Positions 3,909 through 20,300 of a stretch of DNA of 64,000 nt are shown here, one piece after another; position 1 is the stretch's first letter, and each line of letters begins with the position of its first letter. The notes beneath the pieces are model-generated. The model made no database searches. It was not told the DNA's origin and was given only the letters and a program-made list of their open reading frames with translations. The position numbers and the translations under genes are program-made. This DNA comes from a virus. The DNA lies in the UHGV virus genome UHGV-0076294, one strand, 5' to 3'.

Positions 3909-3943
3909 TACCTACCTCCTTTACGGAGGTAGGTACTTTTTTT
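3909..3943. terminator. Bidirectional rho-independent terminator
   Basis: TACCTACCTCC/GGAGGTAGGTA stem followed by T7. Sits between convergent genes. Confidence 0.8.
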
Positions 3944-4616
3944 ATTTTATCCCCATTTCTAAAGCGTACGCTCGGATGGTATCATAATCACGCTGCTCGG
4001 CTAAAAGTCGAAGCTCTTTTTTCTGCTCGGTTTTCTGATTATGCAATTTCTGATCGCGTTTCACAATCGTTGCCATCAGTTCCTTACACTGCTCCAATGT
4101 GAACGGTTCCACTCGAGCGTTTGATGTGTCCAACCAGTAATCCGGTGCGGTTTCTGATTGGATATACTGACTTAACATCTGTCTTGACGTTGAGTCTGTT
4201 TGGAAATAACGTCCGTTTAATTCAATAGGCGCATAACGTTGCTCCTCATAAAGACGCTCCATCTCTATCATGATTTTCTGAACATCCTGATAGATATACC
4301 GCACCGTAGAACGAACGTTATTTCGTATTTCTTCTAAATCAATCTCAAGAACATCAGAGATAAATTCTTTCGCTTTCTGTAGCGTAAAATTAGCCTCAAT
4401 CTCTGACATATCATAACTGCGCATCTGTTCGATTGCGGCCTTATCTTCCAACCCTTCGATTAATTTGTAATGTAGAAGCGCACAAAAACCTGCACGGCCA
4501 CGATCCTCATTGCCAATTCGTTCCATGTAATTACCGTGCCGATCGATTGGAAGCCCTCGTGAGAAATAACGTTGGCGTATTTCCTCTTTCGTTAAGCTTT
4601 CGTCAATAACAGACAT
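3942..4616 (-). CDS. DUF4376-like domain protein (fibre-operon accessory)
   Basis: C-half IELNGRYFQTDSTSRQMLSQYI...WLDTSNARVEPFTLEQCKEL fits my memory of the DUF4376 pattern seen next to phage fibre genes. AAAGGAG RBS. Last gene of the operon. Confidence 0.45.
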   Translation of the reverse strand: MSVIDESLTKEEIRQRYFSRGLPIDRHGNYMERIGNEDRGRAGFCALLHYKLIEGLEDKAAIEQMRSYDMSEIEANFTLQKAKEFISDVLEIDLEEIRNNVRSTVRYIYQDVQKIMIEMERLYEEQRYAPIELNGRYFQTDSTSRQMLSQYIQSETAPDYWLDTSNARVEPFTLEQCKELMATIVKRDQKLHNQKTEQKKELRLLAEQRDYDTIRAYALEMGIK

Positions 4617-5164
4617 TCATCATCTCCTTTAACTAAACCCAGTTCAATTAACAATTCAAAATCGATTTGGCGAAATTTGTTATCAAAACCAGAATCCCAA
4701 TCGATATGTAACCCTTGTCGTTCTTCATCGGTAAGTTCAGGATAAATTAAACCAAGGAACGCTTCACGTTCTTCGTAAAATCCATCGATAGTAGAATCTG
4801 GATTTCGTGTTGCATAGATCGTAATGCCCGGAAAGGATAATCCTAATGCTGTTATAGATTCGACGCTCGGTTCTTGCAAGGCCCTGCGTAAAAGCACGAT
4901 TTTATGTCGTGGAAATTCTAGTACACGTTGTTCAAATCCAGGATTCCGTTTCTCAATTTCTGTAACTGAAAGATCGGTGAGTTCTGTGCAATACATTGGG
5001 ATAACTACGGTTACTCCGTGACGAATTAATAGTCGTTTAACATCGTCAGTGAAGTCTTCACCGTTAATTTGCACATAACAACCAAACAGTTTTGTGCTCT
5101 CTAAAAACTTTTCCAAAAAACGGAATTTACGCTTCGTAATATTGTGGATCAGAATTGGTTTCAT
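4592..5164 (-). CDS. Hypothetical protein
   Basis: 190-aa ORF overlapping both neighbours (translational coupling). No recognisable motif. Confidence 0.6.
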   Translation of the reverse strand: MKPILIHNITKRKFRFLEKFLESTKLFGCYVQINGEDFTDDVKRLLIRHGVTVVIPMYCTELTDLSVTEIEKRNPGFEQRVLEFPRHKIVLLRRALQEPSVESITALGLSFPGITIYATRNPDSTIDGFYEEREAFLGLIYPELTDEERQGLHIDWDSGFDNKFRQIDFELLIELGLVKGDDECLLLTKA

Positions 5165-6449
5165 CTTTGGCTTCTCTCAATTGTTTTTCTTTCTGGGCAC
5201 GTTCACGTACGCAACGAGGGCAATAACACATGCTATTATCGTGAAAATCTTTCACTGACGTCGTGCCCATTTTCTGTTTCCAATATTCCGCAACCATCAA
5301 TTTTGCAGTTGTCCAGCCGCATTGACGGCGTTCGGCGTGATAAGCTTTGCGATCTTCTAGCGTCCCTTCTCCATTCTCGTAAGATGCAGCCGCACAACTA
5401 CCACAAGCGTGCTTCATTGGACAACCTAAACAGGTTTCAGGATAGTTGGTATATTGCGTCTGAATCTCTTCCAGCAATTTCCCGTCATCTAAGCTAACGA
5501 ATTCCCGGCCAACTAATTCAAATACGGCAGAACGTGATGTTACGGTTGACATGAAACGGTTACAACCGAAGATCTTACGATCGAATCCTAAGCAGGTCAT
5601 GTGTGTTAACGTACCGCAGAACGGACGTAAACGTTCTGGATTCAAACGTACAGTATCGTTATACAATAATTGGTCGCGCCAGTTTGGTTCCCAGATAGTA
5701 TCAAAATCTAACCCGTCTGGAATGATGTGCGACAAGGTGTTACGTGGGTTGGTGTGTAAGCCCTTCTCAACCCAATAATCAACCACATCCATCATCTGCA
5801 ATGCGATTGAAGTAGCCATGCTCCGTGGCATAATGTCTTCGAAGGTTACGTTGCCGGAAATAGTTCCACCGCCAGTAATATCAATTAATGATTTCATTCC
5901 AGCAGCATAGAACGGTAACGTTTCCAACGTAAAGGTCGCTTTTACACCAAGTTCTGCAATACCGACTTCTTTTAAGTAATTATAGCCCCGCACAGCGGCC
6001 TCGTAAGATCCTTCACGAGTTGTTGTAAAAATCCGGTACTTATCGTGCGATTCGGGCAATCCATCAATAGACACCCCAATAGAAAGCCTGTCTTTCCAAC
6101 GTTCAATAATTTCTCTATTCAAAGGTCTATCTAACAATGTTCCGTTAGTAGAAATGCTAAACATAAACGGCCGATTATGTTTTTCGCATAACTCTTCTGC
6201 GGTTTCAAATGCCGCCATTAATAACTTAGGCTGCATAAACGGCTCGCCGCCGATAATGTCGATAACGACCTCGATGTTTGTCAGGTCTTTATCCCTTTCG
6301 AAACAGGCATGTAAAAAATCAACGATATCTGCCGCTTTGTTATTCCGAGGATACTTACGTTCGTAACAATACTCACAGTCTAGGTTACACGATAAATTTG
6401 TAACGATCTGATAAGTCAGTTGTTTAGGATAACTATTTTCTTGACTCAT
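5127..6449 (-). CDS. Radical SAM enzyme with SPASM-like C-terminal auxiliary-cluster domain
   Basis: CNLDCEYC (CX3CX2C) at about residue 21, GGEPFM, C-terminal CLGCPMKHACGSC (CX2CX5CX2C) plus further Cys. 440 aa, similar in size to AnSME/SCIFF maturases. GAGGGG RBS. Confidence 0.85.
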   Translation of the reverse strand: MSQENSYPKQLTYQIVTNLSCNLDCEYCYERKYPRNNKAADIVDFLHACFERDKDLTNIEVVIDIIGGEPFMQPKLLMAAFETAEELCEKHNRPFMFSISTNGTLLDRPLNREIIERWKDRLSIGVSIDGLPESHDKYRIFTTTREGSYEAAVRGYNYLKEVGIAELGVKATFTLETLPFYAAGMKSLIDITGGGTISGNVTFEDIMPRSMATSIALQMMDVVDYWVEKGLHTNPRNTLSHIIPDGLDFDTIWEPNWRDQLLYNDTVRLNPERLRPFCGTLTHMTCLGFDRKIFGCNRFMSTVTSRSAVFELVGREFVSLDDGKLLEEIQTQYTNYPETCLGCPMKHACGSCAAASYENGEGTLEDRKAYHAERRQCGWTTAKLMVAEYWKQKMGTTSVKDFHDNSMCYCPRCVRERAQKEKQLREAKDETNSDPQYYEA

Positions 6450-7356
6450 TTTCCGCCCCTCTATTACGTTCTGCCATCACTACACGACGAATGTACTCGT
6501 AAGCTTCTACACCTATTGAGGAGGCTAGTTGGTTACACCCTGCTTTCGTAGCTATTGGTACATTTTTAAGTTGGTTTTCTTCCCCGTCCGCGTCTATCCT
6601 GAGACTTTCGCTACAGGCGTTACAAGCATGATCGAAGAATCTGTTTACAATAAAGCCGCAGTCTCTAGAATTTAGAACATTCAGTCTTTCTATATTCTCC
6701 TGAATTCTAAAATACCCGTAAATAAAGTTCATAACGTGATCGGGAGATAACGGTTTTGGCATGTTTTTGTCTAGTAATAAGGACATAGAACGAAAACCGT
6801 AATGGTAGATAGCAGTATATAATTGAATGATATCTTCATGCCATCTTTTATTGGATAAATTCTCCCTCGTAACAACAGCCCAAGTGTTAACATTATTCAA
6901 GCTGTAAATTACTTCTAACGCCTCATGGCAATTATCATCAATAAAGCGCTTAAAAGGCCGTTCAGAAAGATTAAACCCATCGATGCTAACATATATAGCA
7001 TCGAATTGTTTTAACAACGGTAGATGCGATTTACGCATTTTTAAACCGTTCGTGAACATTTGGTGTTTGAGTTCAGGACGGATCGTTTTTAATTCGTCAA
7101 CAAACGCCTCAATCTTTCGAGTTGCCAGTAGCGGTTCACCGCCAGTCCACTGAATTTCAGTAATGGTTGGGTTAGACGACAACGCTTTCAAAATTCGTTC
7201 ACGTTGAAACTCTCGCGGAGAATCTTCACGATGCATGTAATAGGCTCCGCCGCAGAAGCTACAGTCCAGATTACATTTGGATGTAGCAACTACGGACAAT
7301 ACGGTGGGTTTATTGTATAAACGATTCGATAACCTTGGCTCTACGTCGGTTGTCAT
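6433..7356 (-). CDS. Radical SAM enzyme (small paralog 2)
   Basis: SKCNLDCSFCGGAYY, GGEPLL, C-terminal CNACS...GC cysteines. Start set to ATG 7356 by length alignment with paralog 9406..10320 (ORF track gives 7371). Confidence 0.85.
   Translation of the reverse strand: MTTDVEPRLSNRLYNKPTVLSVVATSKCNLDCSFCGGAYYMHREDSPREFQRERILKALSSNPTITEIQWTGGEPLLATRKIEAFVDELKTIRPELKHQMFTNGLKMRKSHLPLLKQFDAIYVSIDGFNLSERPFKRFIDDNCHEALEVIYSLNNVNTWAVVTRENLSNKRWHEDIIQLYTAIYHYGFRSMSLLLDKNMPKPLSPDHVMNFIYGYFRIQENIERLNVLNSRDCGFIVNRFFDHACNACSESLRIDADGEENQLKNVPIATKAGCNQLASSIGVEAYEYIRRVVMAERNRGAENESRK
6679..6773. repeat. 95-nt block 100% identical to 9643..9737
   Basis: Checked base by base. Lies inside the rSAM paralogs at constant offset 2964. 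Confidence 0.95.
7010..7047. repeat. 38-nt block identical to 9974..10011
   Basis: tttaacaacggtagatgcgatttacgcatttttaaacc in both copies, offset 2964. Confidence 0.95.
7231..7281. repeat. 51-nt block identical to 10195..10245
   Basis: atgcatgtaataggctccgccgcagaagctacagtccagattacatttgga in both copies (encodes the CX3CX2C region), offset 2964. Confidence 0.95.
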
Positions 7357-7377
7357 TGCAGGTGACTCCATCTATTT

Positions 7378-8265
7378 TTAAATATAGCCAATGGATAACA
7401 AAGGATCGTCGTAAGCGTTAACTCCGGGTTTTAATACAAATGGTGAATTGTAAGCCTCGATAATGCGATTAAGGTCCTTATAACGCACGTTTAAACGTTC
7501 TAAATCCGCCAACGTTACGTTACGTTCCAATACCGCCGACACTGCTGCTTTTTCTTCATCAGTTAACGTGACTTTCGTCATTAAGAAACTAACAAGTTTT
7601 GCTAAATCTGCTTCCGATGACGGGTGTTCACCAATACGTGTTTGAATTAAATGTTGCATCCACGGCTTACGAATACGTTTTGTGATTTCATGTTCATCTG
7701 TAAGGGCAACCCACACAGAGCGTTCGCGATCCCACACAAATTTATAACTGTACGCCATCAGATCGGCTAAGCAGTTGATGCCAAGCTCCTCGTAACCTTC
7801 TATTTCAATGTACGGTTCGGTATCAACATAGTTTTTTGTTTCTACAGGAACCAGTGCATAAAAGTACGGGAATGAACCGAGATAGTCTGGAGACCACCAA
7901 CGACGTGCTACAGGCTTCGCATTCAACTCTTTAAATGGCGTAAAGAACAATTCCAAATCTACAGAATTATTCAGAATACCGTCACTAAAGAAATATTTAC
8001 CGTCAACCAATTTACCGCGTAAATCTGAATCACCGGTAAACACCACTACGCTTTCTGCTGACAGATCGCGTATTTTAAAAGTGTTTTCTACTGAATAGTT
8101 ATTGCGATCGGTAAAAAAACGACCGCGCACTTTGGGCCATTCGCCAGGTAACTGAGTTAACAAACGAACTTTATCTTCCAAATGAGCGCGTATTGAATCG
8201 GGGGAAGAAATATGAAGTGGGTGGTTGAAAATTGTTTTATAGGCTAAATGCAAATCGTTTTTCAT
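7378..8265 (-). CDS. Hypothetical protein
   Basis: 295-aa ORF between the Cys-rich genes and rSAM 2. TGGAG RBS. No recognisable motif. Confidence 0.7.
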   Translation of the reverse strand: MKNDLHLAYKTIFNHPLHISSPDSIRAHLEDKVRLLTQLPGEWPKVRGRFFTDRNNYSVENTFKIRDLSAESVVVFTGDSDLRGKLVDGKYFFSDGILNNSVDLELFFTPFKELNAKPVARRWWSPDYLGSFPYFYALVPVETKNYVDTEPYIEIEGYEELGINCLADLMAYSYKFVWDRERSVWVALTDEHEITKRIRKPWMQHLIQTRIGEHPSSEADLAKLVSFLMTKVTLTDEEKAAVSAVLERNVTLADLERLNVRYKDLNRIIEAYNSPFVLKPGVNAYDDPLLSIGYI

Positions 8266-8277
8266 TGATTACTCCAA

Positions 8278-8568
8278 TTATTTTACGGTCAATCTGACGT
8301 TCAAGGTATAGAACCCGCCACGCCATTGCCTGCCGGTAACTTCAAATTCCGCAGTAAAGCCGTTTGATTTACTCGGTTGCTGCGTAATCGCCATGGTTCC
8401 GCCGGAATTACTTAATACTTCTAACGAGATAGAAACAGAAGATGCATTACCGATAGAGTCTATCTTAAAACTAGCCGCGTCTGTAAAATTGACACTGATA
8501 CCGTTACCCATCGCAACTTGTGGATAGGCGTAAGACTTGCCAGACAGTAACGATTTAAAGATCCTCAT
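8278..8568 (-). CDS. Beta-rich domain ORF, probably the -1 frame continuation of 8739..8945
   Basis: No SD before ATG 8568. Its frame is open upstream to 8757, across the G10 run. Confidence 0.6.
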   Translation of the reverse strand: MRIFKSLLSGKSYAYPQVAMGNGISVNFTDAASFKIDSIGNASSVSISLEVLSNSGGTMAITQQPSKSNGFTAEFEVTGRQWRGGFYTLNVRLTVK

Positions 8569-8945
8569 CGGTTTTTCTTTACCGGTTAATGTTGCGCATT
8601 GAATAAAGACGGTCCCAGTAGAGAAATTGATACGGACAACATCTTTAGCGTGTAGCTTAGACTCAACATAAACAACGGCTTTGTTATCGTAGGCGGGTCT
8701 TGATGGGGTTGGTGTGGAACCGCCGCCGGAGGGCTTACTTACCCCCCCCCCGCTCCCTTACTACAGCTACCGCTGCACGACCAACTACAACCACCGTTAC
8801 AATTATAATGACTTAAAGGTAACCCAGCTAGATTGTTGGTTGAAGAAACCGTCCCTTGGTTTGCAATATAGTTGTTTGCATTAGCGGTGGTGATATATCC
8901 CTCCGCTGTTACTAACCTGTCGCGTATGTTTTTAAGACTTATCAT
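8278..8945 (-). CDS. Candidate fusion product (fibre-like N-terminus, mini CX3C segment, G/P/T linker, beta-rich domain) via -1 frameshift
   Basis: Hand translation: frames differ by exactly -1 and overlap only across GCG GGG GGG GGG TAA. No stop in the linking segment. Confidence 0.5.
8739..8945 (-). CDS. Cys-rich fibre-like protein 3 (short form, 4 Cys)
   Basis: MISLKNIRDRL... N-terminus and NCNGGCSWSCSGSCS junction homologous to the two longer Cys-rich proteins. Confidence 0.7.
   Translation of the reverse strand: MISLKNIRDRLVTAEGYITTANANNYIANQGTVSSTNNLAGLPLSHYNCNGGCSWSCSGSCSKGAGGG
8742..8751 (-). repeat. G10 homopolymer (C10 on + strand), a slippery or phase-variable tract
   Basis: Ten consecutive C at 8742..8751, directly abutting the TAA of the 68-aa ORF. 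Confidence 0.95.
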
Positions 8946-8948
8946 TTC

Positions 8949-9347
8949 TTATCTTCCAGTACACGATTGCTGACATCCGCCTCGACATGAACCCGAACAT
9001 GTTCCGGTGCAACTACTTGAACAACCACCCGAGCAGTTACCTGTGCACCCTCCTGAGCAGGTACTGCTACAACCTGTACAACCTGTACTACATCCTGAAA
9101 CACAGTTCGCTGAACAGGAAGAACCGCAGCCACCGGAGGCGTTGCCGGTGCAGCCGCCCGAACAACTTGAGCATGTCCAGCTACAGCTACCTCCGCAGTC
9201 ATAGTGAGTTCTCGGCTGTCCTCCAAACAGATCGCTATTATTAGTGGCTTTACCACGAATATAGTTCTGCACCGCACCAGTGTTTTTTAATGCAGTAGAG
9301 TCTATGTTATCCAGCCGGGCCTTTAAAGAAGATAAACCAATCGCCAT
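8949..9347 (-). CDS. CX3C-repeat Cys/Gly/Ser/Thr-rich protein 2
   Basis: 132 aa with 20 Cys in the last ~82 residues, mostly CX3C. Conserved N-region and DCGGSCSWTCS junction. Confidence 0.85.
   Translation of the reverse strand: MAIGLSSLKARLDNIDSTALKNTGAVQNYIRGKATNNSDLFGGQPRTHYDCGGSCSWTCSSCSGGCTGNASGGCGSSCSANCVSGCSTGCTGCSSTCSGGCTGNCSGGCSSSCTGTCSGSCRGGCQQSCTGR
9167..9200. repeat. 34-nt block identical to 10555..10588
   Basis: ttgagcatgtccagctacagctacctccgcagtc encodes DCGGSCSWTCS on the minus strand in both Cys-rich genes. Confidence 0.95.
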
Positions 9348-9405
9348 TTTAATACCTACTGGTTTAGTGCCCCCTAGGACACATTATAATTCATTTTCTG
9401 TAAAA

Positions 9406-10320
9406 TTATCGTAGTTTTTCTGAGACTCTATTCTTAGCCCCTACCACACGACGTATATAGTCGTAAGCATCTAATCCAACCTTTCTGGCCAAGTCACTAC
9501 AACCATGCTGCGTTACGATTTCAACGTTCTTTACTTGGTTCTGGGCACCGTCAGACTCAATGCGAAAACAACGACTACACGTATTACAGGGTTCATCAAA
9601 TAACGCATTTAGCGTAAACGCACATTCACTTCGATTGGACGAATTCAGTCTTTCTATATTCTCCTGAATTCTAAAATACCCGTAAATAAAGTTCATAACG
9701 TGATCGGGAGATAACGGTTTTGGCATGTTTTTGTCTAAAACCAGCGACATCTCACAAAAACCATAATGGTAAATGTGGTTATGTAACGCAATTATATCTT
9801 CGTACCAACGTTTATCCCCAATACGCTCGCGTGTCAAGACCGCCCAAGTACGAATATTTTTCAATTCGTAAATTGTCTCCAAAACCTCGTATTGTTTTTC
9901 TTCGATAATCCTCATGAACGGACGCTCTGATTCTTTGAATCCATCCATGCTAAAAAAGATACTATCAAAACCCTTTAACAACGGTAGATGCGATTTACGC
10001 ATTTTTAAACCATTGGTATACAGGTAATGTTCGCAACGAGGATACTTCTCCCTTATCTCTTCTATAAGGGTATCAATTTTACGCGAGGCAAGTAATGGTT
10101 CGCCCCCTGACCATTGGATATTTGTGATAGTCGGGTTATTTTCCAGCGCCTCGATAATACTTTCCTTTTGTACTTCTGTGGTTGTATCCTCTCTATGCAT
10201 GTAATAGGCTCCGCCGCAGAAGCTACAGTCCAGATTACATTTGGACGTTGTAATCACGTTTAACGTTCTCGGATTACTGTAGAGCTTATCGGATACCGTC
10301 GGTCTAGTAAGTTCTTCCAT
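9406..10320 (-). CDS. Radical SAM enzyme (small paralog 1)
   Basis: SKCNLDCSFCGGAYY, GGEPLL, C-terminal CNTCSRC...GC. Paralog of 6433..7356. Confidence 0.85.
   Translation of the reverse strand: MEELTRPTVSDKLYSNPRTLNVITTSKCNLDCSFCGGAYYMHREDTTTEVQKESIIEALENNPTITNIQWSGGEPLLASRKIDTLIEEIREKYPRCEHYLYTNGLKMRKSHLPLLKGFDSIFFSMDGFKESERPFMRIIEEKQYEVLETIYELKNIRTWAVLTRERIGDKRWYEDIIALHNHIYHYGFCEMSLVLDKNMPKPLSPDHVMNFIYGYFRIQENIERLNSSNRSECAFTLNALFDEPCNTCSRCFRIESDGAQNQVKNVEIVTQHGCSDLARKVGLDAYDYIRRVVGAKNRVSEKLR
9643..9737. repeat. 95-nt block identical to 6679..6773
   Basis: See 6679..6773. Confidence 0.95.
9974..10011. repeat. 38-nt block identical to 7010..7047
   Basis: See 7010..7047. Confidence 0.95.
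10195..10245. repeat. 51-nt block identical to 7231..7281
   Basis: See 7231..7281. Confidence 0.95.
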
Positions 10321-10339
10321 TCGAACTGATCCTTATTTT

Positions 10340-10732
10340 TTATGGGTTAGAACAACCACCTGCACAAGAACCACTACACCCCGAGGAACAACGTCCAGCA
10401 CATCCCCCAGTACAAGTCCCACTACATCCTGAACAACCACCCGAACATGTTCCGGTGCAACCACTGCATTGATTACCACACGCAGAGGAACAGCTTCCTA
10501 CGCACACCGATGTACATGTACCTGAACAACTCGTACAACCATGCGTACAACCGTTTGAGCATGTCCAGCTACAGCTACCTCCGCAGTCTAATCGACCGGG
10601 TGTCCAACCTGAAAATGAATCAGCAGCATTATGTGCTTTCGACGCAACTTGCGGATCAACACGTGGCCCAGTTGCTATTCGGTTCTCTACGTTGGTGATT
10701 CGGTCACGTACGTTTTTAACACTGATCGCCAT
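10340..10732 (-). CDS. CX3C-repeat Cys/Gly/Ser/Thr-rich protein 1
   Basis: 21 Cys in the last ~82 residues. MAISVKNVRDRI N-terminus. Start set to ATG 10732 (AAGGA 6 nt upstream) rather than GTG 10735. Confidence 0.85.
   Translation of the reverse strand: MAISVKNVRDRITNVENRIATGPRVDPQVASKAHNAADSFSGWTPGRLDCGGSCSWTCSNGCTHGCTSCSGTCTSVCVGSCSSACGNQCSGCTGTCSGGCSGCSGTCTGGCAGRCSSGCSGSCAGGCSNP
10555..10588. repeat. 34-nt block identical to 9167..9200
   Basis: See 9167..9200. Confidence 0.95.
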
Positions 10733-10743
10733 CACATATCCTT

Positions 10744-10799: not shown

Positions 10800-11999
10800 T
10801 TATTTCGTACCCGCTTCTGCTTGTACGTCATCACGAGACGTCAGGTTAGCGTTAACGTGCACTGGGGCCTGAACCACGCCACCGTATCTCTTGTGGAGAT
10901 AACCTGTATGTGGGTTATCTGCCGCAATGTGGTTTTGTAGGTTTTGGTTCGCCTGACTGATTGCGTTCGTGTTATTATTAACCTGCTGTTTAAGCGCATC
11001 CAGGTTTTGTTGTAACTGATCGATTTTCTGATCGGTTTCTTGGCCATGTTGCTCTAACGCTTCAACACGCTGAATAACCTGATTCAGTTTTGTATTTAAA
11101 TCGTTGACACTCTTTTGCAGTTGTAACACTAACGAGTTCAGGTTCGCTAACGCTAAAGCCATTTTCTGGTAGTTTTGAGCAACCACGTTAAGTTGGTCGT
11201 TCCACGCTTCCAGAGAGCTGACAACAGCGTCAATACGCTTACCTAAAGCTTCATCTGCTTTCTTCAGTGCATTGATTTCCGTAATCGTTGCGTCGATAGC
11301 AGACTGGACGTCACGAATAAGCGCACGGATTTCAGTTTCTGTTAGTCCATTAACCTGATGGATATCAAGTTGGTGGACGTTACCGGTTGCATTGATGTGC
11401 GCATTTAAAGCGTCCAAGAAGTCGTTTTTCAGACTTTCCAGAATCGCTTTAATGTTCTCTAACTGTACCGCATCGCCAGAACTGATCGCGTCCTTAATGC
11501 CCGCCAATACAGCGATGATATATTCAAAGCCATAAATGTCACCTACGTCTTTATACGTCGGCGCTGACGGGAATGTATCTGGTACGTTACGTAAGTCTTT
11601 AAATGCAACTGTACGGTTATCGAGGTTTAGCTCAGCAATCGCTTGTTCGATAGCCACGATGTTTGCAGACTGTGGGCCACCAACTACCTGCGCAGATACC
11701 GTAATGTCTGTCGGAATCGCTGTGTTAGTGACCACAACCGCCATGACAATCTCGCGGTTTTTAGTCAGCTTTTCATAAGCCGGGTGTGCAAAAATCAACT
11801 CATAATCGGTACCACGTTCGTAGGTTGCATCCGGTCGGTTAGCAACGCGCAAACGAAACGTGTCCGCAAAGAACGGGCCGTCAGGAAAAGCAAAAGCACG
11901 GTTTACTTTACCTGTACCTAACGTAACCTGACGCTCCACAGCGTTAGACGTTAGCGAGCCTGTTAAATCTAAAGGATATTGGTAAACAATGGAGGCCAT
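10800..11999 (-). CDS. Tail fibre protein (short, coiled-coil shaft)
   Basis: N-terminal FPDGPFF...GTDYEL module shared with the three giant fibre genes. Long heptad-like Q/N/L-rich segment. Start set to ATG 11999 (AAGGAGAG RBS). Confidence 0.8.
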   Translation of the reverse strand: MASIVYQYPLDLTGSLTSNAVERQVTLGTGKVNRAFAFPDGPFFADTFRLRVANRPDATYERGTDYELIFAHPAYEKLTKNREIVMAVVVTNTAIPTDITVSAQVVGGPQSANIVAIEQAIAELNLDNRTVAFKDLRNVPDTFPSAPTYKDVGDIYGFEYIIAVLAGIKDAISSGDAVQLENIKAILESLKNDFLDALNAHINATGNVHQLDIHQVNGLTETEIRALIRDVQSAIDATITEINALKKADEALGKRIDAVVSSLEAWNDQLNVVAQNYQKMALALANLNSLVLQLQKSVNDLNTKLNQVIQRVEALEQHGQETDQKIDQLQQNLDALKQQVNNNTNAISQANQNLQNHIAADNPHTGYLHKRYGGVVQAPVHVNANLTSRDDVQAEAGTK

Positions 12000-12039
12000 G
12001 GCCACTCTCCTTTATTCGAGACGTCCTTGTCCCGAGTCA

Positions 12040-15000
12040 TTAAGATGTAAACATAAGATTGAACTGGAGTTTGTCGATATCTCGAGTTTCAGCCGGATTC
12101 AACGCATCGAACGTAGTTGCCACATAAACCGTTAGCGTACCATCATCATACGAAGATTTCACCGGCGGATTAGTTCCAGTCTGACCATCTCTCACAACGA
12201 GTGCAGGCTCGCTGGGAAGATTATCAAACTGCCCTTTAACCGCTTTGTATACCAAACCGGACTGTGCAGATAACTCCGTGTCTGTGTACACACAGAACGG
12301 TGTATCGATGTCAGCTTGTTTGATAGTGGTACCGGATTCGACATCAATCAACTGTACTGCTCCAAACTTCGTGCGATAACTTTCATATTCGTTCTTCGGA
12401 ATAACAAAAGTAACGTGAACACGAACTTCTTCAGCGGGCTTAAAGCCAGTATGTTCTTTTTCCAAATACTGATTGGCTGATAGCGTCACTTTTTGTTCGG
12501 CCATCGAACCACCTGCCTGATTTATTCCGTACCGGGCTTCAACAATACCGGTTGGTGCAGCAAGTCGCAATTTCAGAGTTCGATTCGCCGTTCCTGGATT
12601 ACCTGGCACTTGAACGCGCAAACTCAATGCTAAGTAAGCATACGTTCCGGTAGTCGGTTTCGTATACGCACCTATCCATTTCATGTTCGCAGACGCTGCC
12701 TGCGAGTTCTCAGAAGCAGTAGCTGTCGCAATGTTAGCAGCTACCGCTTTCTGCCAGAATTGGTCGGCGCAGTTCTCATACGCTACTCTGGCCACGCTCT
12801 TATAACCCGAATACGTTTCCTGGATTGGTATCTTAGGACGCGTCGTGATGCCAGACAATGAACCCCATTTCTGGCCGTCAACATACCCTTCGCCCTTCGA
12901 CGCAGACGCCGTAGGTGCTTTAACGGGCTTGTTAATCAGTGTTAATAGAGGACCCGTCTTTCTGTCGAACGCTGCCGCTACATCGTGTTGGTCGATAATT
13001 GCTGCGTGGTCTTCCAGCTCTTTCACACGACCCAAGCGTTTTACTTTGTCGATACTGATATCAGTAATACGGCTGGAATCGGTGGTTACTGTCCCAACGA
13101 ACAGTCTTGTTGAAGTATCGGCTAACTGCTCCAAACCGATGCGGTATTGCGCGGTAGAACCCGACACCTCAGCGTGCACGTAGAACGTCTGGTTAGCGTG
13201 ATTGGACGGGAACTCGCTGCTTAAATCCACAGACCACGTTGGGAGTGTATAGCTGCTACTACCGAAATCTAACTTGACTTCTTCAGTCAGATACAGAATC
13301 CAACCTTCCGCTGTTTCCACACCGGCGATGATAACAGCCTGACCTCCGGTTGAGAAGGTCGTGTCGTTAACAAACTCTGCGGCTGTATACGCGTTACCTG
13401 AGCAGAAAACGCGGTCAGCTTTAGAGAAAATCAACGCCATCTTGTCCCAGTTACCCGCACCCATATAGCACCCAGATTCTGGGTTATGTGCAGGAGCCAT
13501 CTGTCGTAACTGCGACTTACCAGGAACGCGAGACCAACCTGAACCTGGGTCGTAGGTATACTTCGCGGCGTAACCTAGTGCGTTTAAGTCCCCGATATTT
13601 CGGATAGTTAACGTATAAGGTAGCCAGATACCGAAGTTAGTTCCATCCGCAGAAGCGAAAATAGGCTGTCCGACGCGACGGGTCTTATTACCAGCCTCCT
13701 CTCTTAACGACTGATAACTTAAACCGTAATCTTTATCCAGGAACCAATCCACCAACTTAAAGGTAGCTGAGTTGAACCGTAAGTAGCCATTCTCTTTAGA
13801 TGGACTCACCATGAAGTAATAGATATCAAGAATTCGACGTCCGTTACTTAAGGTTTTCATGCACGAAACTTGCAACAAGTCAAACTCGCACACGGTATTG
13901 ATACCCAACATCCAAAGAGCAAACAAGGCATTACCGGTTTGATGTGCAGCACTAATACGCTCGTTTGCGTATCCGTTCGCTTCACCAGAAGGCGCACCGT
14001 CAACGATCATCTGAATCATTTTCTGACGATCGGTTTCTTCTAACGTTAAGCGTTCAGAAGACAACGCAAAGTTACCGTAGATGTTACGATACGGGAACGT
14101 TTCTGCTTTGGTCAAATACCAACCATTTAATTGACCGTGACGTTCTTCAGGGATCATGCACGCCGCCATACAGCTAAGCTGTTCGTAAAGCGTTGCATCG
14201 ACTTCACGACGGTTGTTATTCGGTCCGTAGCCACTGTAACCCGGAACGTCGTAAGGTTTATTCGGATCAACTTCCACTTCGATGGTATAACGGTTACGTG
14301 GGTTTGACAACCACACCTTATTCGAACCACCAATTCCGACAGGATGAGAAAGACCGATGGTATAAATAGAACCACGACCTTTATCCCAGGTAAACGTTCC
14401 TTCGCCTGAGGTATTGTTTGGGTTATCGTAACGCAGATAATCGAAAAGCTCTTTGCCTTGCGTTCCTTTAATAGAAACGTTAGGCATCTGGTCTGCATCG
14501 TTAATCTGCCAACAGGAAAGCATCATTCCCGTACCGTTGGGTTTAGCATACGTCGCGAAACAACGATTGTTTGCTTGACCACCGCCCCACTTACGGCTGG
14601 TTTCTACAGTTGAACCATCCGCGAAAGAGAGTGTAGTAGCATCAGCCTTGATGGGGAAGCGTTCGCGGCCTTCTAACGTAACCTTGCCCGTCGACGTATC
14701 GATTGTAAAACTTGTTGCCCATTGACGAAAGTTAATTTGTGAGCTGTCAGCCGCTGCAAACCACACAGTAGGCATATGGTTCACACGAATCACGCCGTCG
14801 CGCACTGCACAAGCATGGTTACATTCTGGACCGTGAACAAAGTTGCAACCAATTGTCCATTTAGCCCGTGCTTCCGGCGTCAAATACGTAAAGAACTGAC
14901 CCGTTTGTGACTCTTCGGTTTTCTGGCCAATGCGTAGGCAGAGGTTATCTCCAAATTGTCCCATCTCCCCGTTTAGTGTTACGCGTTCAAACTCCAGCGT

Positions 15001-17223: not shown

Positions 17224-17256
17224 CGTAAAGACTCCTACTTTTTAAATAAAATGGAT

Positions 17257-17281
17257 ACCCCTCCCCATTACAGGGAGGGGT
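17257..17281 (-). other. Intercistronic GC hairpin
   Basis: CCCCTCCC/GGGAGGGG stem with 7-nt loop between fibre genes. No clear T-run. Confidence 0.4.
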
Positions 17282-17318
17282 TACCTACGGACACACAACT
17301 GCCCGCAGGCAGCCTGTC

Positions 17319-20300
17319 CTAAGTACGATCCCCTAACTGCTTCCCGTTAAGTTCTCGTTTCAGTACAGAAAGTATCCATTTCCACGCTTTACTCGTGATA
17401 TGGTACGGATTCCGTTTCTCCATTAAGAACTGCTTTTCACCGCTACGCAGTTCGAAGCTCTGCGCATTAAGGTAGTCCTGACGATAGATTTTCTCATCAA
17501 AAACTTCCAATGAACAGGTAAAGTTAAGTTCGTACCCTTCAGGATTATTACCTGGTGGTTCTAAGACAATATAAATGTCCTGACCTACGCGTAAATCCCT
17601 TGGAGTGATGGTAATCGCTTTACCTACATCAGCGCTTGTTGACAGTGCAAACTCCGCACTATCGGTGGACGCTAAGTACGGGTCTTTCCCTGCATCGCCT
17701 ATAATTACCTTACCCGGCCAGTTGCACTTCACCGTCCCGGACACCTTTGCAATCCGATATTGTTGTCTCTCAACACCTTGTGCAAAACGGAGAATGAGTT
17801 TGTGACGATAACGACTTGCAGCGGCTTTAGTCGTACTCCACTCATTGTTCCAGGAGGTATGAAGTTCATTTTTCTTGGCCATTAATGCGCCACGAGACAG
17901 CTTACGTGGGAAGAATTGTGCTGGTAATTGCCCATCGTGGGAGGTCGCCACTCCCCCTTGTCCGGTTGGAAGTGCTATTGTTTCCGTAGGACAATAACTT
18001 AACTCGTACTCGTATGTTGCAGGATCGATCAATTTCTGATAGTAATCGCCGTCCTTACTGTTTGCTAACCAACCAACGGAAGAGTCCATATACGATTCAA
18101 ACAGTGAACGTAAATAATGATACTTATCAATATCGATATTACCCGTTTTTGGATCAATCAGCGCATGGTTAATAGTGAGGAGACACTTTTCACTCAAACC
18201 TTTAAACGCTAAACCCACTCCATCGCCGGTAAAGTAGTCTACCAGGTCAAATGGAAACGCCATCTCTATTTGTCGCAAGTCGATAGTCGTTGAACCAAAC
18301 TGCGAAAAAGATAGTGCTAATCGAAGTACACGAGTATTAACGTTATAACGATAACGAATCATCCCACGTGGCGCATGGTTAGCGGAGATCTTATCACCGC
18401 TTGGTCCCCAGCCAATTAAGTCGAGTATTTCGGCATTCGTTACTTCTCCATTAAACAAAACGTCTTTAGTCGTGACTTCAACCGATGTTTCCCTTCCGGC
18501 ATCCATTAACATCGAACCGTTATTCAACTCGAAGTTCTTAAGCCAGACTTCTGAAGTCGAACCGGCACCTACGCCCACCTTACAAGTTTTACTAGTAAGG
18601 TTAATACGCACATAACGACGTCCCGCCGTACCGCCCTGCGAGCTTGCACACAAAATAAGATCAGGTGCCGCAGACAGTGCCTTGGTCCCTCCAATGTCGT
18701 CGACATCGAAAACGAATGAGCCTTCGAACGTTGGTGCGTTATTTTCCTTCGGGTTAAATGGCGTAAACCAACAATAAGGCGTCGCACCCTCGGTTGAGAA
18801 AATCAACTCTAAGTCAGTTTTAACATTTAATCCGTGGGAATAAGAGAAAAGTCCCCGACTTAAGGTACAAAGCGTACCGCCACTTCCGCTACCTAACATT
18901 TTTCGATAAACTAAGGCACGTGGTTCAGCAATAGCGCGATTTAACAACGGCAGTCGTGGGTTATCCGTTAACGTCCAGTCGACAGAGCTGAGTCCGTGTG
19001 CCTTGCGAGTACCAATGTGTTCACTAACCTCGGCACTTTTCCCGAAATCGAACGTGGTTTCAAATCTCACGGTTTTATTCGCGTAGGATGATACACCCGC
19101 AACAATATCAACATAGCCGATATAACCACGCTCAGGATCGACCTCAAATCCTTGAACTGGTTCAGCACGCGAATACAAAGAGCCTGTGAGCATGTTAACG
19201 TACAGATAATGACGAATCCCTACATGCGTTGTAACAAACTCCTGAAGAAGCTCTACGCGCGTTTCAGGGCCACTGAAGTAAACAGGATAGTCACCATCGT
19301 AAACTTCAAATTGTACAGCTGCCGATTTTGCAGTATCGCTACATTCTGCTTTAACAGCAATTGTGTAGTTTTCAACATCTGGAGACGTTCCATAGTTCAT
19401 TAACAATGGCGACTCACCAGTAGCACCCACAACACCATTTACATAAACGGTTATTGTCCCACCGCCAGCGGCATAAACAAACAGCCTTTTCTGATGGGCT
19501 TTGACGCGCGTTTTAGCCAGCACCGATACAACGGACTGATCGCCCATCTGCGTAGCGCTTTTACCTACCGGAACTGACTGAAACCCCATTATTGGAGGAT
19601 CAACAATTCCATCCCAACTAATCCCGGTACCTTTACTAACCTTACCCGTAGGCCAAGTCAGTTCAAGCTGGTTATTCGGTGAGAACCAGTTAAACATTGG
19701 GGTAGTTTGCAGGTCAATCGCACCGGTAACGGTACTGTCGCCTTTCATACCGTTCAGCAAATAGAAACATTTCAAATCCTGAACAGAAATTGCAGTACCC
19801 TGGCTATTGAAACGCCAGTCTGCGCCTTTCACAGCAGCGAAATCCGTTACTGTTCCTTCTTTCGCGTTTGCTATCGCAGCAGCCACCACATCTAAACGGG
19901 CTGAAAGCTCTTTTAAGATGTCCGGTACAACCGCACGGTTCTCAACCAACCCGTTCTGGTTAGATGCATAACGACCAATACCGTAAATCGACTGCGAGGC
20001 TTTATAAATGCCTAACTCTGACCAGTCGTGGTGGTGACCGACATCTGCTAAACCACTAACCGATATATTCAGTTCAGTAGACAACGGTTTGTCGAGGTCT
20101 GCGGTGTTATCCGCTTGCCCTAATCCCAGGTCAGCTTTCGTGATCGTCCTGGAGCCGTCGTTCATTGACTTACCGTTAATCATGGTCGTTTTAGTCACGT
20201 ACCCTGATAAGTCGGTTGAATATGGCGTTAGTGACGCAGGGGTTGCTGCAACCCCAACCGTTTCTGTGCCTTTACCGGTTTTAAGTTTAACGACACCTTT

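What the first reader, a model, noticed from the sequence alone, without database searches (positions are those of the whole stretch)
3942..10735. RiPP-like radical-SAM/SPASM maturation cluster with three CX3C-repeat proteins built into the tail-fibre operon
Seen: downstream of four co-oriented fibre genes lie nine more genes, separated by overlaps or short gaps (58 nt at most apart from the frameshift region).
- Cys-rich protein 1 (10340..10732)
- rSAM 1 (9406..10320)
- Cys-rich protein 2 (8949..9347)
- Cys-rich protein 3 (8739..8945, continuing by frameshift to 8278)
- a 295-aa ORF
- rSAM 2 (6433..7356)
- a 440-aa rSAM with a SPASM-like end (5127..6449)
- a 190-aa ORF
- a DUF4376-like ORF

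All three enzymes carry CX3CX2C (CNLDCSFC twice, CNLDCEYC once) within their first ~30 residues, plus GGEP(L/F). The 440-aa enzyme ends in CX2CX5CX2C with further Cys. The two long Cys-rich proteins have 21 and 20 Cys in their last ~82 residues. Nearly all are at CX3C (some CX2C) spacing in a matrix of almost only Gly/Ser/Thr.

Established: rSAM-SPASM enzymes (SCIFF/ranthipeptide maturases such as CteB, sactipeptide synthases, QhpD) install Cys-sulfur-to-carbon thioether bridges in Cys-rich peptides or protein subunits. SCIFF cores have the same C-x3-C-in-S/T/G look.

Inference: the phage post-translationally staples these cores. The enzymes have no room for an N-terminal RRE-type leader-binding domain, and I recognise no protease or exporter. 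The substrates also have fibre-like N-termini. I therefore favour modification of a virion or fibre-tip component over a secreted peptide. I am not aware of a described phage fibre matured by rSAM chemistry.
Basis: partly seen in the sequence, partly recalled or inferred. Interest (0 to 1): 0.92.

Follow-up and report, generated by a model that had tools for sequence, protein, structure and literature searches.

The report
Radical-SAM-matured cysteine-repeat phage tail fibres
A giant Salmonella-type phage carries, at the end of its tail-fibre operon, small fibre-like proteins made of Cys-X-X-X repeats together with three radical-SAM enzymes that most likely modify them chemically, and the same kit sits next to tail-fibre genes in many unrelated phages, which points to an undescribed way of building phage receptor-binding fibres.

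Summary
Window 3942-10735 (minus strand) holds two about 130-aa proteins with 21 and 20 Cys at CX3C spacing, a 68-aa short paralogue, two short radical-SAM enzymes, one 440-aa radical-SAM/SPASM enzyme, a 295-aa accessory protein, a 190-aa protein and a DUF4376 protein. All lie behind four giant fibre genes and end at a terminator.

The 440-aa enzyme's best family is NCBIfam's 'CXXX-repeat target' peptide maturase. Its best fold match is the thioether synthase CteB, and it lacks an RRE domain.

The decisive new evidence is comparative. Distant homologues of this enzyme (24-40% identity) lie in tail modules of P2-like, lambda-J-like, T4-like and gut phages. They sit directly after proteins whose C-termini are CXXX runs, and three of these hit tail-fibre PHROG families strongly. 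A homologous accessory protein and a short rSAM accompany them in most of the closer relatives. 72 of 80 viral loci show the arrangement.

The chemistry (thioether) and virion incorporation remain inferred. I found no literature on this.

The suspected frameshift coincides with a G10 tract whose length varies among relatives.

The parts
10340..10735 (-). CysA: 131-aa (130 from ATG 10732) protein. It has a 50-aa N-terminal part and an 81-aa C-[S/T]-[G/S]-[G/S/T] repeat core with 21 Cys.
   Evidence: ORF. phrog_6085 at E 6e-40. TIGR04114 CXXX repeat at 20.1 bits against a cut-off of 20. Cys count and spacing. pN/pS 0.12-0.34 against relatives.
9406..10320 (-). Short radical-SAM enzyme a (304 aa). 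It is an extra paralogue inserted between CysA and CysB in this phage only.
   Evidence: PF04055 at E 4e-14. 61% identical to rSAM-b. Invariant C28, C32 and C35 plus C245, C248 and C274. Absent at this position in L088, L089, SPN3US, SPAsTU and the Erwinia phage.
8949..9347 (-). CysB: 132-aa protein with 20 Cys in the last 82 residues. Its junction motif is KATNNSDLFGGQPRTHYDCGGSCSWTCS.
   Evidence: ORF. phrog_6085 at E 3e-39. TIGR04114 at 22.3 bits. The junction aligns with the C-terminal part of the Deferribacter prophage fibre-like protein (BLASTP E 2e-5).
8739..8945 (-). CysC: 68-aa short paralogue with the same N-terminal part and junction, but only four Cys (CNGGCSWSCSGSCS).
   Evidence: phrog_6085 at E 8e-25. 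Orthologues of the same length occur in SEGD1 and the Erwinia phage. 0 non-synonymous against 11 synonymous differences to L168.
8742..8751 (-). G10 homopolymer tract (C10 on the + strand) at the end of CysC. It is a slippery or hypermutable site joining CysC to the downstream domain.
   Evidence: It is the only 10-mer C/G run in the window, against 0.02 expected. Relatives carry G9, G11 or G6.
8278..8742 (-). 154-aa Pro/Gly/Ser linker plus probably beta-rich domain, in the -1 frame of CysC. Only the last 96 codons (8278-8568) follow a start codon.
   Evidence: The frame is open from the G tract onward. The domain is full-length and conserved (58-91% identity, no indels) in L168, L174/L175 and L176, including the 58 codons before the ATG. 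It is deleted or decayed in L088-L090. There is no clear SD before ATG 8568.
7378..8265 (-). Accessory protein, 295 aa (phrog_8030, = SPN3US gp165). It is the conserved partner of the system.
   Evidence: phrog_8030 at E 2e-138. Homologous to the 250-aa proteins that sit between fibre and rSAM genes in Deferribacter and Campylobacter prophages (hhalign 95%, E 4e-8). The AF2 model has pLDDT 85.8 and no fold match.
6433..7371 (-). Short radical-SAM enzyme b (312 aa, or 307 from ATG 7356; = SPN3US gp164).
   Evidence: PF04055 at E 1e-12. The best full-length-like match is the PapB model, residues 24-228. Three extra invariant C-terminal Cys.
5127..6449 (-). Large radical-SAM/SPASM maturase (440 aa, = SPN3US gp163).
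   Evidence: TIGR04115 at 118 bits over residues 10-371, and PapB at 114 bits. Seven invariant C-terminal Cys. The AF2 model has pLDDT 88.8. Foldseek top hits are CteB 5wgg (E 4e-15, TM 0.65), ChlB and anSME.
4592..5164 (-). 190-aa protein (phrog_7988, = SPN3US gp162). It overlaps both neighbouring genes and its function is unknown.
   Evidence: ORF. phrog_7988 at E 7e-55. No Pfam or NCBIfam hit. Found only in the jumbo-phage versions of the module.
3942..4616 (-). DUF4376 protein (224 aa, = SPN3US gp161). It is the last gene of the unit.
   Evidence: PF14301 at E 3e-9. Weak tail-fibre PHROG hits. A DUF4376 gene also follows the rSAM pair in L171.
3909..3935 (.). Bidirectional hairpin terminator (11-bp stem) between the end of the minus-strand unit and the convergent plus-strand genes.
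10800..25863 (-). Four co-oriented tail-fibre/baseplate genes (401, 1727, 1402 and 1441 aa), immediately upstream in the same orientation.
   Evidence: ORFs. The SPN3US counterparts gp167-gp170 are virion proteins, and gp168-170 are assigned to tail fibre/baseplate.

Best explanation
This is a phage tail-fibre maturation module. Its substrates are fibre-type proteins whose distal (C-terminal) part is a run of Cys-X-X-X repeats. Here these are three free-standing paralogues, CysA, CysB and the short CysC.

A dedicated enzyme set is made from the same late transcript:
- one radical-SAM/SPASM maturase with two auxiliary Fe-S clusters;
- one or two shorter radical-SAM enzymes with a single auxiliary cluster;
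- a 250-295-aa accessory protein of unknown fold, which probably presents the substrate in place of the missing RRE domain.

The enzymes most likely use 5'-deoxyadenosyl radical chemistry to link Cys sulfur atoms to neighbouring backbone or side-chain carbons as thioethers. This would turn the glycine/serine-rich repeat into a covalently stapled, protease- and heat-resistant rod or knot at the fibre tip.

What is shown:
- the gene content and the family and fold assignment of the enzymes;
- the conserved linkage of enzymes, accessory protein and Cys-repeat fibre ends across unrelated phages.

What is inferred:
- that the Cys repeat is the substrate;
- that the product is a thioether;
- that the modified proteins are part of the virion.
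For: **1. Enzyme identity**
- PF04055 hits in all three enzymes.
- For the 440-aa enzyme, the best models are TIGR04115 (CXXX-repeat-target maturase) and PapB ranthipeptide maturase.
- Seven Cys are invariant in its C-terminal domain.
- The fold is closest to CteB, ChlB and anSME.

**2. Substrate identity**
- CysA and CysB reach the TIGR04114 repeat cut-off.
- All three Cys proteins belong to phrog_6085.
- The Cys frame is under purifying selection.

**3. Linkage in cultured phages**
- 62 phage records carry the Cys protein and 62 carry the enzyme, with identical organism tallies.

**4. Linkage in unrelated phages**
- Campylobacter P2-like prophage. The gene order is baseplate J - I - tail fibre ending in GCNGCSGSCSGSCSSGCTACSGCSGSC - 250-aa accessory - large rSAM - short rSAM - sheath. 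The rSAM genes sit where P2 has its fibre-assembly gene.
- Deferribacter lambda-J-type prophage. The fibre-like protein ends in KATNADQLGGQAGSYYRCSDCSWTCSSSC(CXXX)n, followed by accessory, short rSAM and large rSAM.
- L092, L093 and L169-L173 show the same pattern in J-type, T7-fibre-type, T4-like and large phages.
- The Cys-ended proteins of L006, L092 and L093 hit tail-fibre PHROGs at E 1e-32 to 1e-55. L093, L005, L169 and L172 hit phrog_6085 at their C-termini.

**5. Scale**
- 72 of 80 IMG/VR loci with a relative of the enzyme have a same-strand Cys-run ORF within 3 kb upstream.
- There are 0 such runs on the opposite strands.
- The gut-phage versions lie behind sheath-initiator, Baseplate_J and Mu gp48 genes.

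**6. The enzymes work together**
- The short and large rSAM are fused in one 686-aa ORF in L093.
- L169 has two short plus one large rSAM, like the window.

**7. The accessory protein belongs to the module**
- hhalign 95%, E 4e-8, between the jumbo-phage and prophage versions.

**8. One transcription unit with the fibre genes**
- Gaps of at most 64 nt (except 170 nt after CysC) or overlaps, with a terminator only at 3909-3935.
Against: - No modification has been observed, and the chemistry is inferred from relatives at 16-20% identity.
- The 440-aa enzyme scores far below the curated cut-offs of every characterised family: 118 against 350 for TIGR04115 and 114 against 340 for PapB.
- Pfam's SPASM model gave no hit at E <= 0.1.
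- The repeats lack the Asp/Glu/Asn acceptors of the characterised thioether systems that have a defined acceptor. They are almost only Cys, Ser, Thr and Gly.
- SPN3US virion proteomics detected gp167-gp173 but nothing from gp161-gp166. This is weak evidence, because CysB is annotated in the wrong frame and CysA and CysC are not annotated. The cores also lack tryptic sites.
- In this phage the Cys proteins are only 68-132 aa, with no recognisable baseplate- or fibre-attachment domain.
- The accessory protein has no fold match that would indicate substrate binding.
Confidence: 0.62

Rival explanations
1. The cluster makes a secreted or lysis-released RiPP (a bacteriocin or signal). The Cys-rich proteins would be precursor peptides with 50-aa leaders, modified, cleaved and released to act on other cells. 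Under this view the position next to fibre genes is incidental.
For: - The enzyme family is annotated as a RiPP maturase (TIGR04115, PapB, SCIFF-like).
- The 50-aa N-terminal parts resemble leader peptides in length.
- One phage record even labels the enzyme AlbA.
Against: - No protease, transporter or immunity gene was detected among the nine genes.
- The same Cys-repeat domain is the C-terminus of 250-570-aa proteins, three of which hit tail-fibre PHROG families strongly (L006, L092, L093), in other phages.
- The module sits inside tail gene blocks of at least four phage types.
- It is co-transcribed with late structural genes.
Confidence: 0.08
2. The Cys repeats are metal- or iron-sulfur-binding (metallothionein-like) or disulfide-bonded structural elements that are not covalently modified. 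The radical-SAM enzymes would then do something else, for example modify another fibre protein or act as Fe-S scaffolds.
For: - Dense Cys arrays bind metals.
- From established knowledge, the T4 gp37 fibre tip is stabilised by a line of metal ions.
- No acceptor residues typical of known thioether systems are present.
- The enzymes fall below all curated family cut-offs.
Against: - The enzyme genes and Cys runs are strictly and closely linked in 72 of 80 viral loci and in all 62 cultured phages.
- The best-matching enzyme family is defined by having such repeats as its target.
- The enzymes are maintained in the minimal prophage modules, where the only other conserved partners are the fibre and the accessory protein.
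Confidence: 0.15
3. The Cys-repeat element is modified by the rSAM enzymes but acts only during assembly. It would be a covalently stapled trimerisation or chaperone module, free-standing here and C-terminal elsewhere. It would nucleate folding of the giant fibres and then be removed or left behind, like the intramolecular chaperone domains of some tailspikes.
For: - In the P2-like prophage the module occupies the position of the fibre-assembly gene (with the P2 gene order from established knowledge).
- SPN3US virions lack gp161-gp166 signals.
- The Cys run is always at the extreme C-terminus, where cleavable chaperone domains usually sit.
Against: - The proteomic absence is uninformative because of the misannotation.
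- No protease motif or cleavage site was recognised.
- CysC can carry a further distal domain behind the repeat. This fits a permanent fibre component better than a discarded tag.
Confidence: 0.15

Closest known systems
NCBIfam/TIGRFAMs CXXX-repeat system: TIGR04115 (radical SAM peptide maturase, CXXX-repeat target family) with TIGR04114 (Cys-rich repeat)
   Same: - It is the best-scoring family for the 440-aa enzyme, aligned over nearly its whole length (residues 10-371).
- The substrate repeat reaches the TIGR04114 cut-off.
- The enzyme gene is adjacent to the repeat protein.
- Gut-phage relatives score 294 bits.
   Different: - The window enzyme scores 118 bits against a cut-off of 350, so it is a separate and more distant subfamily.
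- The system here has extra short rSAM enzymes and a 295-aa accessory protein.
- The family is filed as a RiPP system with no experimental characterisation that I could find. Here, and in most of its viral relatives, it is part of phage tail modules.
PapB/freyrasin and CteB/SCIFF (thermocellin) ranthipeptide maturases
   Same: - They share the radical-SAM core plus a SPASM domain with two auxiliary clusters.
- PapB is the second-best model (114 bits).
- CteB is the best match in the PDB by sequence (E 1e-11) and by fold (TM 0.65).
- Their substrates also have Cys at CX3 spacing in Ser/Thr/Gly-rich cores.
   Different: - Both score far below the cut-offs (340 and 425).
- There is no N-terminal RRE domain.
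- The substrates are 68-570-aa fibre-type proteins rather than about 45-aa peptides.
- There are no Asp or Glu acceptors.
- The product is not known.
QhpD acting on QhpC (small subunit of quinohemoprotein amine dehydrogenase)
   Same: It is a SPASM radical-SAM enzyme that installs Cys thioethers in a protein subunit kept as part of a larger assembly, not in an exported peptide. This is the same logic as proposed here.
   Different: - Only 57.5 bits against a cut-off of 453.
- Its acceptors are Asp and Glu.
- It belongs to a bacterial periplasmic enzyme, not a virion.
Tail-fibre tip stabilisation and assembly devices: the metal-ion-lined gp37 needle of T4, Tfa/gpG-type fibre chaperones, and cleavable intramolecular chaperone domains (from established knowledge)
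   Same: It occupies the same place in the genome (directly after the fibre gene) and the same place in the protein (the distal end). The presumed purpose is also the same, namely a stable, correctly assembled fibre tip.
   Different: None of those devices uses enzymatic covalent cross-linking by radical chemistry.
Hypermutable poly-G tracts in Campylobacter phage receptor-binding genes (recalled from the literature, not read here)
   Same: A long G tract lies at the junction of a fibre-type gene and a distal domain, and its length differs among close relatives (G9, G10, G11).
   Different: No in-frame state was seen among four sequences. Expression by slippage is untested.

Membership tests
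Radical SAM superfamily (PF04055) | CX3CX2C cluster motif near the N-terminus, a GGE SAM-binding motif, and a Pfam score above the gathering cut-off. | tested here: met
   All three enzymes score 48.7-56 bits against a cut-off of 29.5. The motifs are visible in the translations and invariant.
SPASM-domain radical SAM enzymes (PF13186 / TIGR04085) | C-terminal seven-Cys motif for two auxiliary [4Fe-4S] clusters. | tested here: met
   C278, C296, C340, C343, C349, C352 and C377 are invariant in 30 homologues. The central block is CX2CX5CX2C instead of the usual CX2CX5CX3C.
SPASM-domain radical SAM enzymes (PF13186 / TIGR04085) | Hit to the Pfam SPASM profile. | tested here: not met
   There is no PF13186 hit at E <= 0.1 for any of the three enzymes.
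SPASM-domain radical SAM enzymes (PF13186 / TIGR04085) | Overall fold like solved SPASM enzymes. | tested here: met
   The AF2 model (pLDDT 88.8) matches full-length CteB (E 4e-15, TMq 0.65), ChlB (TMq 0.60-0.61) and anSMEcpe (TMq 0.52-0.59) over about 400 columns.
TIGR04115 CXXX-repeat-target maturase (equivalog domain) | Score at or above the curated cut-off (350 bits). | tested here: not met
   118.1 bits, E 6e-34. It is the best of 67 families but below the cut-off.
TIGR04115 CXXX-repeat-target maturase (equivalog domain) | Encoded next to a Cys-X-X-X repeat protein. | tested here: met
   CysA, CysB and CysC lie within 4.3 kb on the same strand. The same holds in 72 of 80 viral loci.
TIGR04114 Cys-rich CXXX repeat | Repeat model score at or above 20 bits. 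| tested here: met
   CysA scores 20.1 and CysB 22.3 bits. CysC, with 4 Cys, gives no hit.
Ranthipeptide/SCIFF maturases (PapB NF047865, CteB-type TIGR03974) | Score above the curated cut-off. | tested here: not met
   PapB scores 114 against 340, and SCIFF scores 58.8 against 425.
Ranthipeptide/SCIFF maturases (PapB NF047865, CteB-type TIGR03974) | N-terminal RRE leader-binding domain (as in CteB). | tested here: not met
   [not shown]
Ranthipeptide/SCIFF maturases (PapB NF047865, CteB-type TIGR03974) | Forms a Cys-S to C-beta or C-gamma thioether. | not testable with these tools
   This needs mass spectrometry or NMR of the co-expressed product.
Nucleoside/cofactor radical SAM families (QueE, MoaA, NrdG, viperin).
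   For the short enzymes, MoaA scores 46-47 against 284, QueE 34-39 against 260, NrdG 31-36 against 126-131 and viperin 41-46 against 180. All matches are limited to the N-terminal core.
RiPP biosynthetic gene cluster in the strict sense | Leader peptidase and/or exporter with the precursor and maturase. | tested here: not met
   No protease, ABC transporter or immunity family was found in any of the nine genes.
Phage tail-fibre proteins | Homology to, or domain sharing with, annotated tail fibres. | tested here: met
   The phrog_6085 domain of CysA, CysB and CysC recurs at the C-terminus of the L093 protein, which hits tail-fibre PHROGs at E 3e-32, and at the C-termini of the L005, L169 and L172 proteins. 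The Cys-ended L006 and L092 proteins hit tail-fibre PHROGs at E 1e-55 and 2e-40. The L006 fibre also carries PF12571.
Phage tail-fibre proteins | Presence in purified virions. | not testable with these tools
   The SPN3US proteome lists gp167-173 but not gp161-166. The Cys ORFs were not in the annotated protein set.

The most novel reading that the evidence does not exclude
Radical-SAM enzymes covalently cross-link a structural protein of a virus particle. Under this reading the Cys-X-X-X repeat at the distal end of tail fibres is converted into a thioether-stapled rod, possibly bridging chains. This device would be widespread across jumbo, P2-like, lambda-J-like, T4-like and gut phages. The 'CXXX-repeat RiPP' family of the databases would then be, in large part, a phage tail-fibre maturation system. 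In this phage a slippery poly-G tract would additionally decide whether a receptor-binding-type domain is appended to the short paralogue.
Probability: 0.45. Interest if true: 0.92.

Novelty: new variant of a known kind. Interest (0 to 1): 0.85.

Why it matters
If true, this adds enzymatic radical cross-linking to the ways viruses build their host-recognition organelles. It would also give the first biological role to a large, uncharacterised 'RiPP' family (TIGR04114/TIGR04115).

Practical consequences:
- **Phage engineering and therapy.** Swapping fibres between phages would fail without the maturation genes. Fibre function would also depend on the host's Fe-S and reducing systems.
- **Protein engineering.** It would offer a genetically encoded way to staple Gly/Ser-rich protein rods.
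- **Annotation.** The Cys-rich genes are unannotated or called in the wrong frame in SPN3US-like genomes, so existing proteomes could be re-searched at once.

The system is directly testable in SPN3US, which already has amber-mutant genetics.

Tried and rejected
- **Literature.** Nine full-text searches found nothing on this module. They covered SPN3US + radical SAM, phage + tail fibre + thioether, CXXX repeat, ranthipeptide + bacteriophage, jumbo phage + cysteine-rich, SPASM + tail fibre, and RiPP + phage genomes. The Haft & Basu 2011 paper is not held.
- **My first reading of the 'frameshift'.** I took it for a misreading, because CysC orthologues end at the same place. I withdrew that view when the -1 frame proved open to a G10 tract and relatives showed the full domain.
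- **In-frame CysC-domain fusions.** None were found among four distinct sequences. The extension has no homologue in cultured phages and only weak repeat-module hits elsewhere.
- **dN/dS on the 58 codons before ATG 8568.** Against the closest relative this was inconclusive (0.53). The 58%-identical relative L176 settled that they are coding.
- **Accessory protein as an RRE or a known chaperone.** There are no family hits and no fold match in the PDB or BFVD. The afdb50 library was unavailable.
- **Accessory genes of gut-phage loci against NCBIfam**, hoping for a CXXX-system partner family. No hits.
- **Pfam SPASM profile.** No hit. SPASM status rests on the conserved Cys and the fold.
- **Cys ORFs as artefacts of GC-rich repeats.** This was rejected on three grounds: purifying selection in the Cys frame, PHROG and NCBIfam hits, and zero opposite-strand runs.
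- **Promoter scan.** It gave fewer sites than shuffles and was not used.

Full report
**What is in the window**

On the minus strand four very large genes (1441, 1402, 1727 and 401 aa; 25863-10800) are followed by eleven reading frames without a strong terminator:

| Name | Coordinates | Size |
|---|---|---|
| CysA | 10340-10735 | 131 aa |
| short radical-SAM enzyme, rSAM-a | 9406-10320 | 304 aa |
| CysB | 8949-9347 | 132 aa |
| CysC | 8739-8945 | 68 aa |
| ORF behind a G10 tract | 8278-8742 | only the last 96 codons follow a start codon |
| accessory protein | 7378-8265 | 295 aa |
| short radical-SAM enzyme, rSAM-b | 6433-7371 | 312 aa |
| radical-SAM/SPASM enzyme | 5127-6449 | 440 aa |
| unknown protein | 4592-5164 | 190 aa |
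| DUF4376 protein | 3942-4616 | 224 aa |

- Gaps are -38 to +64 nt, except 170 nt after CysC.
- An 11-bp-stem hairpin at 3909-3935 ends the unit against convergent genes.
CysA and CysB have 21 and 20 Cys in their last 82 residues, at 17 and 16 CX3C spacings with a few CX2C.
- The repeat unit is C-[S/T]-[G/S]-[G/S/T].

**Which phage**

- The region is only about 70% identical, over 18% of its length, to SPN3US-like jumbo phages of Salmonella, Escherichia, Proteus and Erwinia.
- Gene order matches SPN3US gp161-gp170.
- In SPN3US, gp167-gp173 are virion proteins and gp168-170 are assigned to the tail fibre/baseplate.
- The window is therefore the fibre region of an undescribed relative. A 225-kb IMG/VR contig has a 94% identical large enzyme.

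**The enzymes**

- All three pass Pfam's radical-SAM threshold.
- For the 440-aa protein the best of 67 NCBIfam models is TIGR04115, 'radical SAM peptide maturase, CXXX-repeat target family'. It scores 118 bits with residues 10-371 aligned to 3-345 of 359.
- PapB ranthipeptide maturase follows at 114 bits. SCIFF, QhpD, CcpM and anSME models each score about 57-59 bits.
- All of these are below the curated cut-offs, so this is a separate subfamily.
- In an alignment of 30 homologues the CX3CX2C Cys, the GGE motif and seven C-terminal Cys are invariant.
- Pfam's SPASM profile did not hit.
- The AlphaFold model (pLDDT 88.8) superposes over about 400 columns on CteB (E 4e-15, TM 0.65), ChlB and anSMEcpe. 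CteB is also the only PDB hit by sequence.
- The two short enzymes are 61% identical paralogues. They carry three further invariant Cys (C245, C248, C274), enough for one auxiliary cluster.
- Their best longer alignment is again to PapB. QueE, MoaA, NrdG and viperin models match only the N-terminal core, far below cut-off.

**The Cys proteins**

- CysA and CysB reach the cut-off of the TIGR04114 repeat model.
- All three belong to phrog_6085.
- They fall into three orthologous groups conserved from Salmonella-type to Erwinia phages, Cys positions included.
- In the Cys frame pN/pS is 0.12-0.34 for the cores. For CysC there are 0 non-synonymous against 11 synonymous changes.
- The genes are real, yet public records miss them. 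SPN3US gp166 is called in another frame over CysB (CDS start 73 nt after the Cys-ORF start), and CysA and CysC are not annotated. SEGD1 has two wrong-frame calls.
- The absence of gp161-166 from the SPN3US virion proteome is therefore uninformative for the Cys proteins.

**The decisive evidence: context of distant relatives**

The large enzyme has homologues at 30-40% identity outside jumbo phages.

*Campylobacter pinnipediorum, a P2-like prophage.* The gene order is:
- gp25-like, baseplate J and tail protein I genes;
- a 384-aa tail fibre (PF12571) ending ...GCNGCSGSCSGSCSSGCTACSGCSGSCSGKSDGCGCRHS;
- a 250-aa protein, then the large rSAM, a short rSAM and a DUF1353 gene;
- the sheath and tube genes.

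By the known P2 gene order, this is the position of the fibre-assembly gene.

*Deferribacter abyssi, a GpJ-type prophage.*
- A 302-aa fibre-like protein ends in ...KATNADQLGGQAGSYYRCSDCSWTCSSSC followed by 25 more Cys repeats.
- A 250-aa protein, a short rSAM and the large rSAM follow.
- The junction aligns with CysB, KATNNSDLFGGQPRTHYDCGGSCSWTCSS (E 2e-5).

*Accessory protein.* The 250-aa proteins are homologous to the window's 295-aa protein (hhalign 95%, E 4e-8).

*Seven more loci (L092, L093, L169-L173).*
- They repeat the pattern in GpJ-type, T7-fibre-type, T4-like (next to gp13) and large phages.
- Each has a C-terminal Cys run, and most have an accessory-size gene and one or two short rSAMs.
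- The Cys-ended proteins of L006, L092 and L093 hit tail-fibre PHROGs at E 1e-55, 2e-40 and 3e-32.
- phrog_6085 matches the C-termini of the L005, L093, L169 and L172 proteins.
- In L093 the short and large enzymes are fused in one 686-aa ORF.
- L169 has two short enzymes and one large one, like the window.

**Scale**

- Of 80 IMG/VR loci with a relative of the enzyme, 72 have a same-strand ORF with a Cys run within 3 kb upstream. The runs hold 8-92 Cys, median 35.
- In 50 of those 72 the run ends within 30 residues of the ORF end.
- No such run occurs on the opposite strands of the same 1.07 Mb.
- The more distant (24-28% identical) gut-phage enzymes score 294 bits on TIGR04115.
- They lie behind sheath-initiator, Baseplate_J, Mu gp48 or DUF2612 genes and fibre-size genes.
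- Among cultured phages, the Cys-protein N-terminus and the enzyme occur in the same 62 records by organism tally.

**Interpretation**

The conserved unit has four parts:
- a fibre-type protein with a C-terminal CXXX repeat;
- the accessory protein;
- one or two short rSAM enzymes;
- the large SPASM rSAM.

In the jumbo phages the repeat domain is on free-standing 68-132-aa proteins with a 50-aa N-terminal part.

The most economical reading is that the enzymes modify the repeat. The accessory protein would stand in for the missing RRE. By analogy with the nearest characterised enzymes (PapB, CteB, QhpD), the product would be a set of Cys thioether cross-links that stiffen or lock the fibre tip.

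The linkage is shown. The substrate relationship, the chemistry and virion incorporation are inferred. The repeats lack the Asp/Glu/Asn acceptors of the characterised thioether systems with a defined acceptor, so a different acceptor or even a different reaction is possible.

**Rivals**

- *A secreted RiPP.* This is unlikely. There is no protease or exporter, and the domain is part of true fibres elsewhere.
- *Metal or disulfide binding without modification.* This cannot be excluded chemically, but it does not explain the strict linkage to the enzymes.
- *An assembly-only stapled chaperone element that is not retained in virions.* This remains open.

**The frameshift**

- CysC ends ...GCG GGG GGG GGG TAA. 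This G10 run (8742-8751) is unique in the window.
- The -1 frame is open from the run to 8278. It encodes a Pro/Gly/Ser linker and a 140-aa domain. The only start codon is 58 codons in and lacks a clear SD.
- Relatives L168 (G9), L174/L175 (GCA + G11) and L176 (G9) have the full 154-aa domain. It is 58-91% identical with no indels, so the upstream 58 codons are coding. In these relatives it lies in the +1 frame of CysC.
- L088-L090 (G6) keep deleted or decayed remnants.
- SPN3US-type and Erwinia phages lack the domain altogether.
- No in-frame fusion was seen.
- The tract is therefore polymorphic. Whether the domain is joined to CysC by slippage, started internally, or switched by tract length is open. 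A homopolymer sequencing error in the window cannot be excluded.

**Novelty**

The enzyme kind, and the in-silico pairing of CXXX repeats with an rSAM, are known. The tail-fibre context, the accessory protein, the enzyme pair and the breadth across phages were not found in nine literature searches. I rate this a new variant of a known kind, of high interest. It is immediately testable in SPN3US.

Noticed in passing
window 8742-8751 and 8278-8742 (minus strand); L168, L174-L176, L088-L090: A G10 tract ends CysC and separates it from a 154-aa domain in the -1 frame. Relatives have G9, G11 or G6, with the domain in the +1 frame or decayed. The tract is possibly phase-variable or slippage-dependent, appending a distal domain to the short Cys protein.
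   Followed up: partly
L003 (SPN3US) 6089-6487, 6501-6902 and the short ORF before 7150; L001 (SEGD1) 13288-14316: The Cys-rich genes are unannotated or annotated in the wrong reading frame in the reference genomes. Examples are SPN3US gp166 and SEGD1 gp169/gp170. SEGD1 CysA is split by a frameshift. Published virion proteomes therefore could not detect them.
   Followed up: partly
window 9406-10320: This phage has an extra copy of the short radical-SAM gene inserted between CysA and CysB. It is missing at that position in every relative compared (L088, L089, SPN3US, SPAsTU, the Erwinia phage).
   Followed up: partly
L093 6131-8191: In a 284-kb viral contig the short and large radical-SAM enzymes are fused into one 686-aa protein. 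This gene fusion argues that the two enzymes act together.
   Followed up: no
L094 4807-6249; L095, L099, L113, L162, L166; L009 4402-6405: Gut-phage contigs and a Termititenax (Margulisiibacteriota) genome contig (L009) encode giant CXXX-repeat proteins with 60-92 consecutive repeat Cys. Some have a further C-terminal glycine-rich or globular domain. All lie next to TIGR04115-like enzymes and small (100-190 aa) unknown partners.
   Followed up: partly
[not shown]
   Followed up: yes
L175 (GCA_008107045.1, Salmonella Enteritidis assembly) and many 'Salmonella enterica'/'Escherichia coli' protein names: Near-complete genomes of these jumbo phages (contigs of 114-244 kb) sit in bacterial isolate assemblies. 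This suggests carrier-state or pseudolysogenic phage, or contamination in the sequenced cultures.
   Followed up: no
window 152-2017 and 2758-3870 (plus strand): Next to the cluster lie several plus-strand genes. They include an ORF at 152-742 and a DUF1353-like ORF at 850-1524, whose counterparts in the syntenic relative L174 carry Glyco_hydro_108/PG_binding_3 and DUF1353. There is also an ORF at 1502-2017, and two paralogous 175-177-aa proteins matching the abundant SPN3US head protein gp160 (DUF7941). A DUF1353 gene also follows the rSAM pair in the Campylobacter prophage.
   Followed up: no
phage record LR535921.1 (Salmonella phage SPFM2): Automated annotation names the large enzyme 'AlbA, subtilosin biosynthesis protein'. 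This over-specific label does not fit: sactipeptide models score far below cut-off.
   Followed up: no
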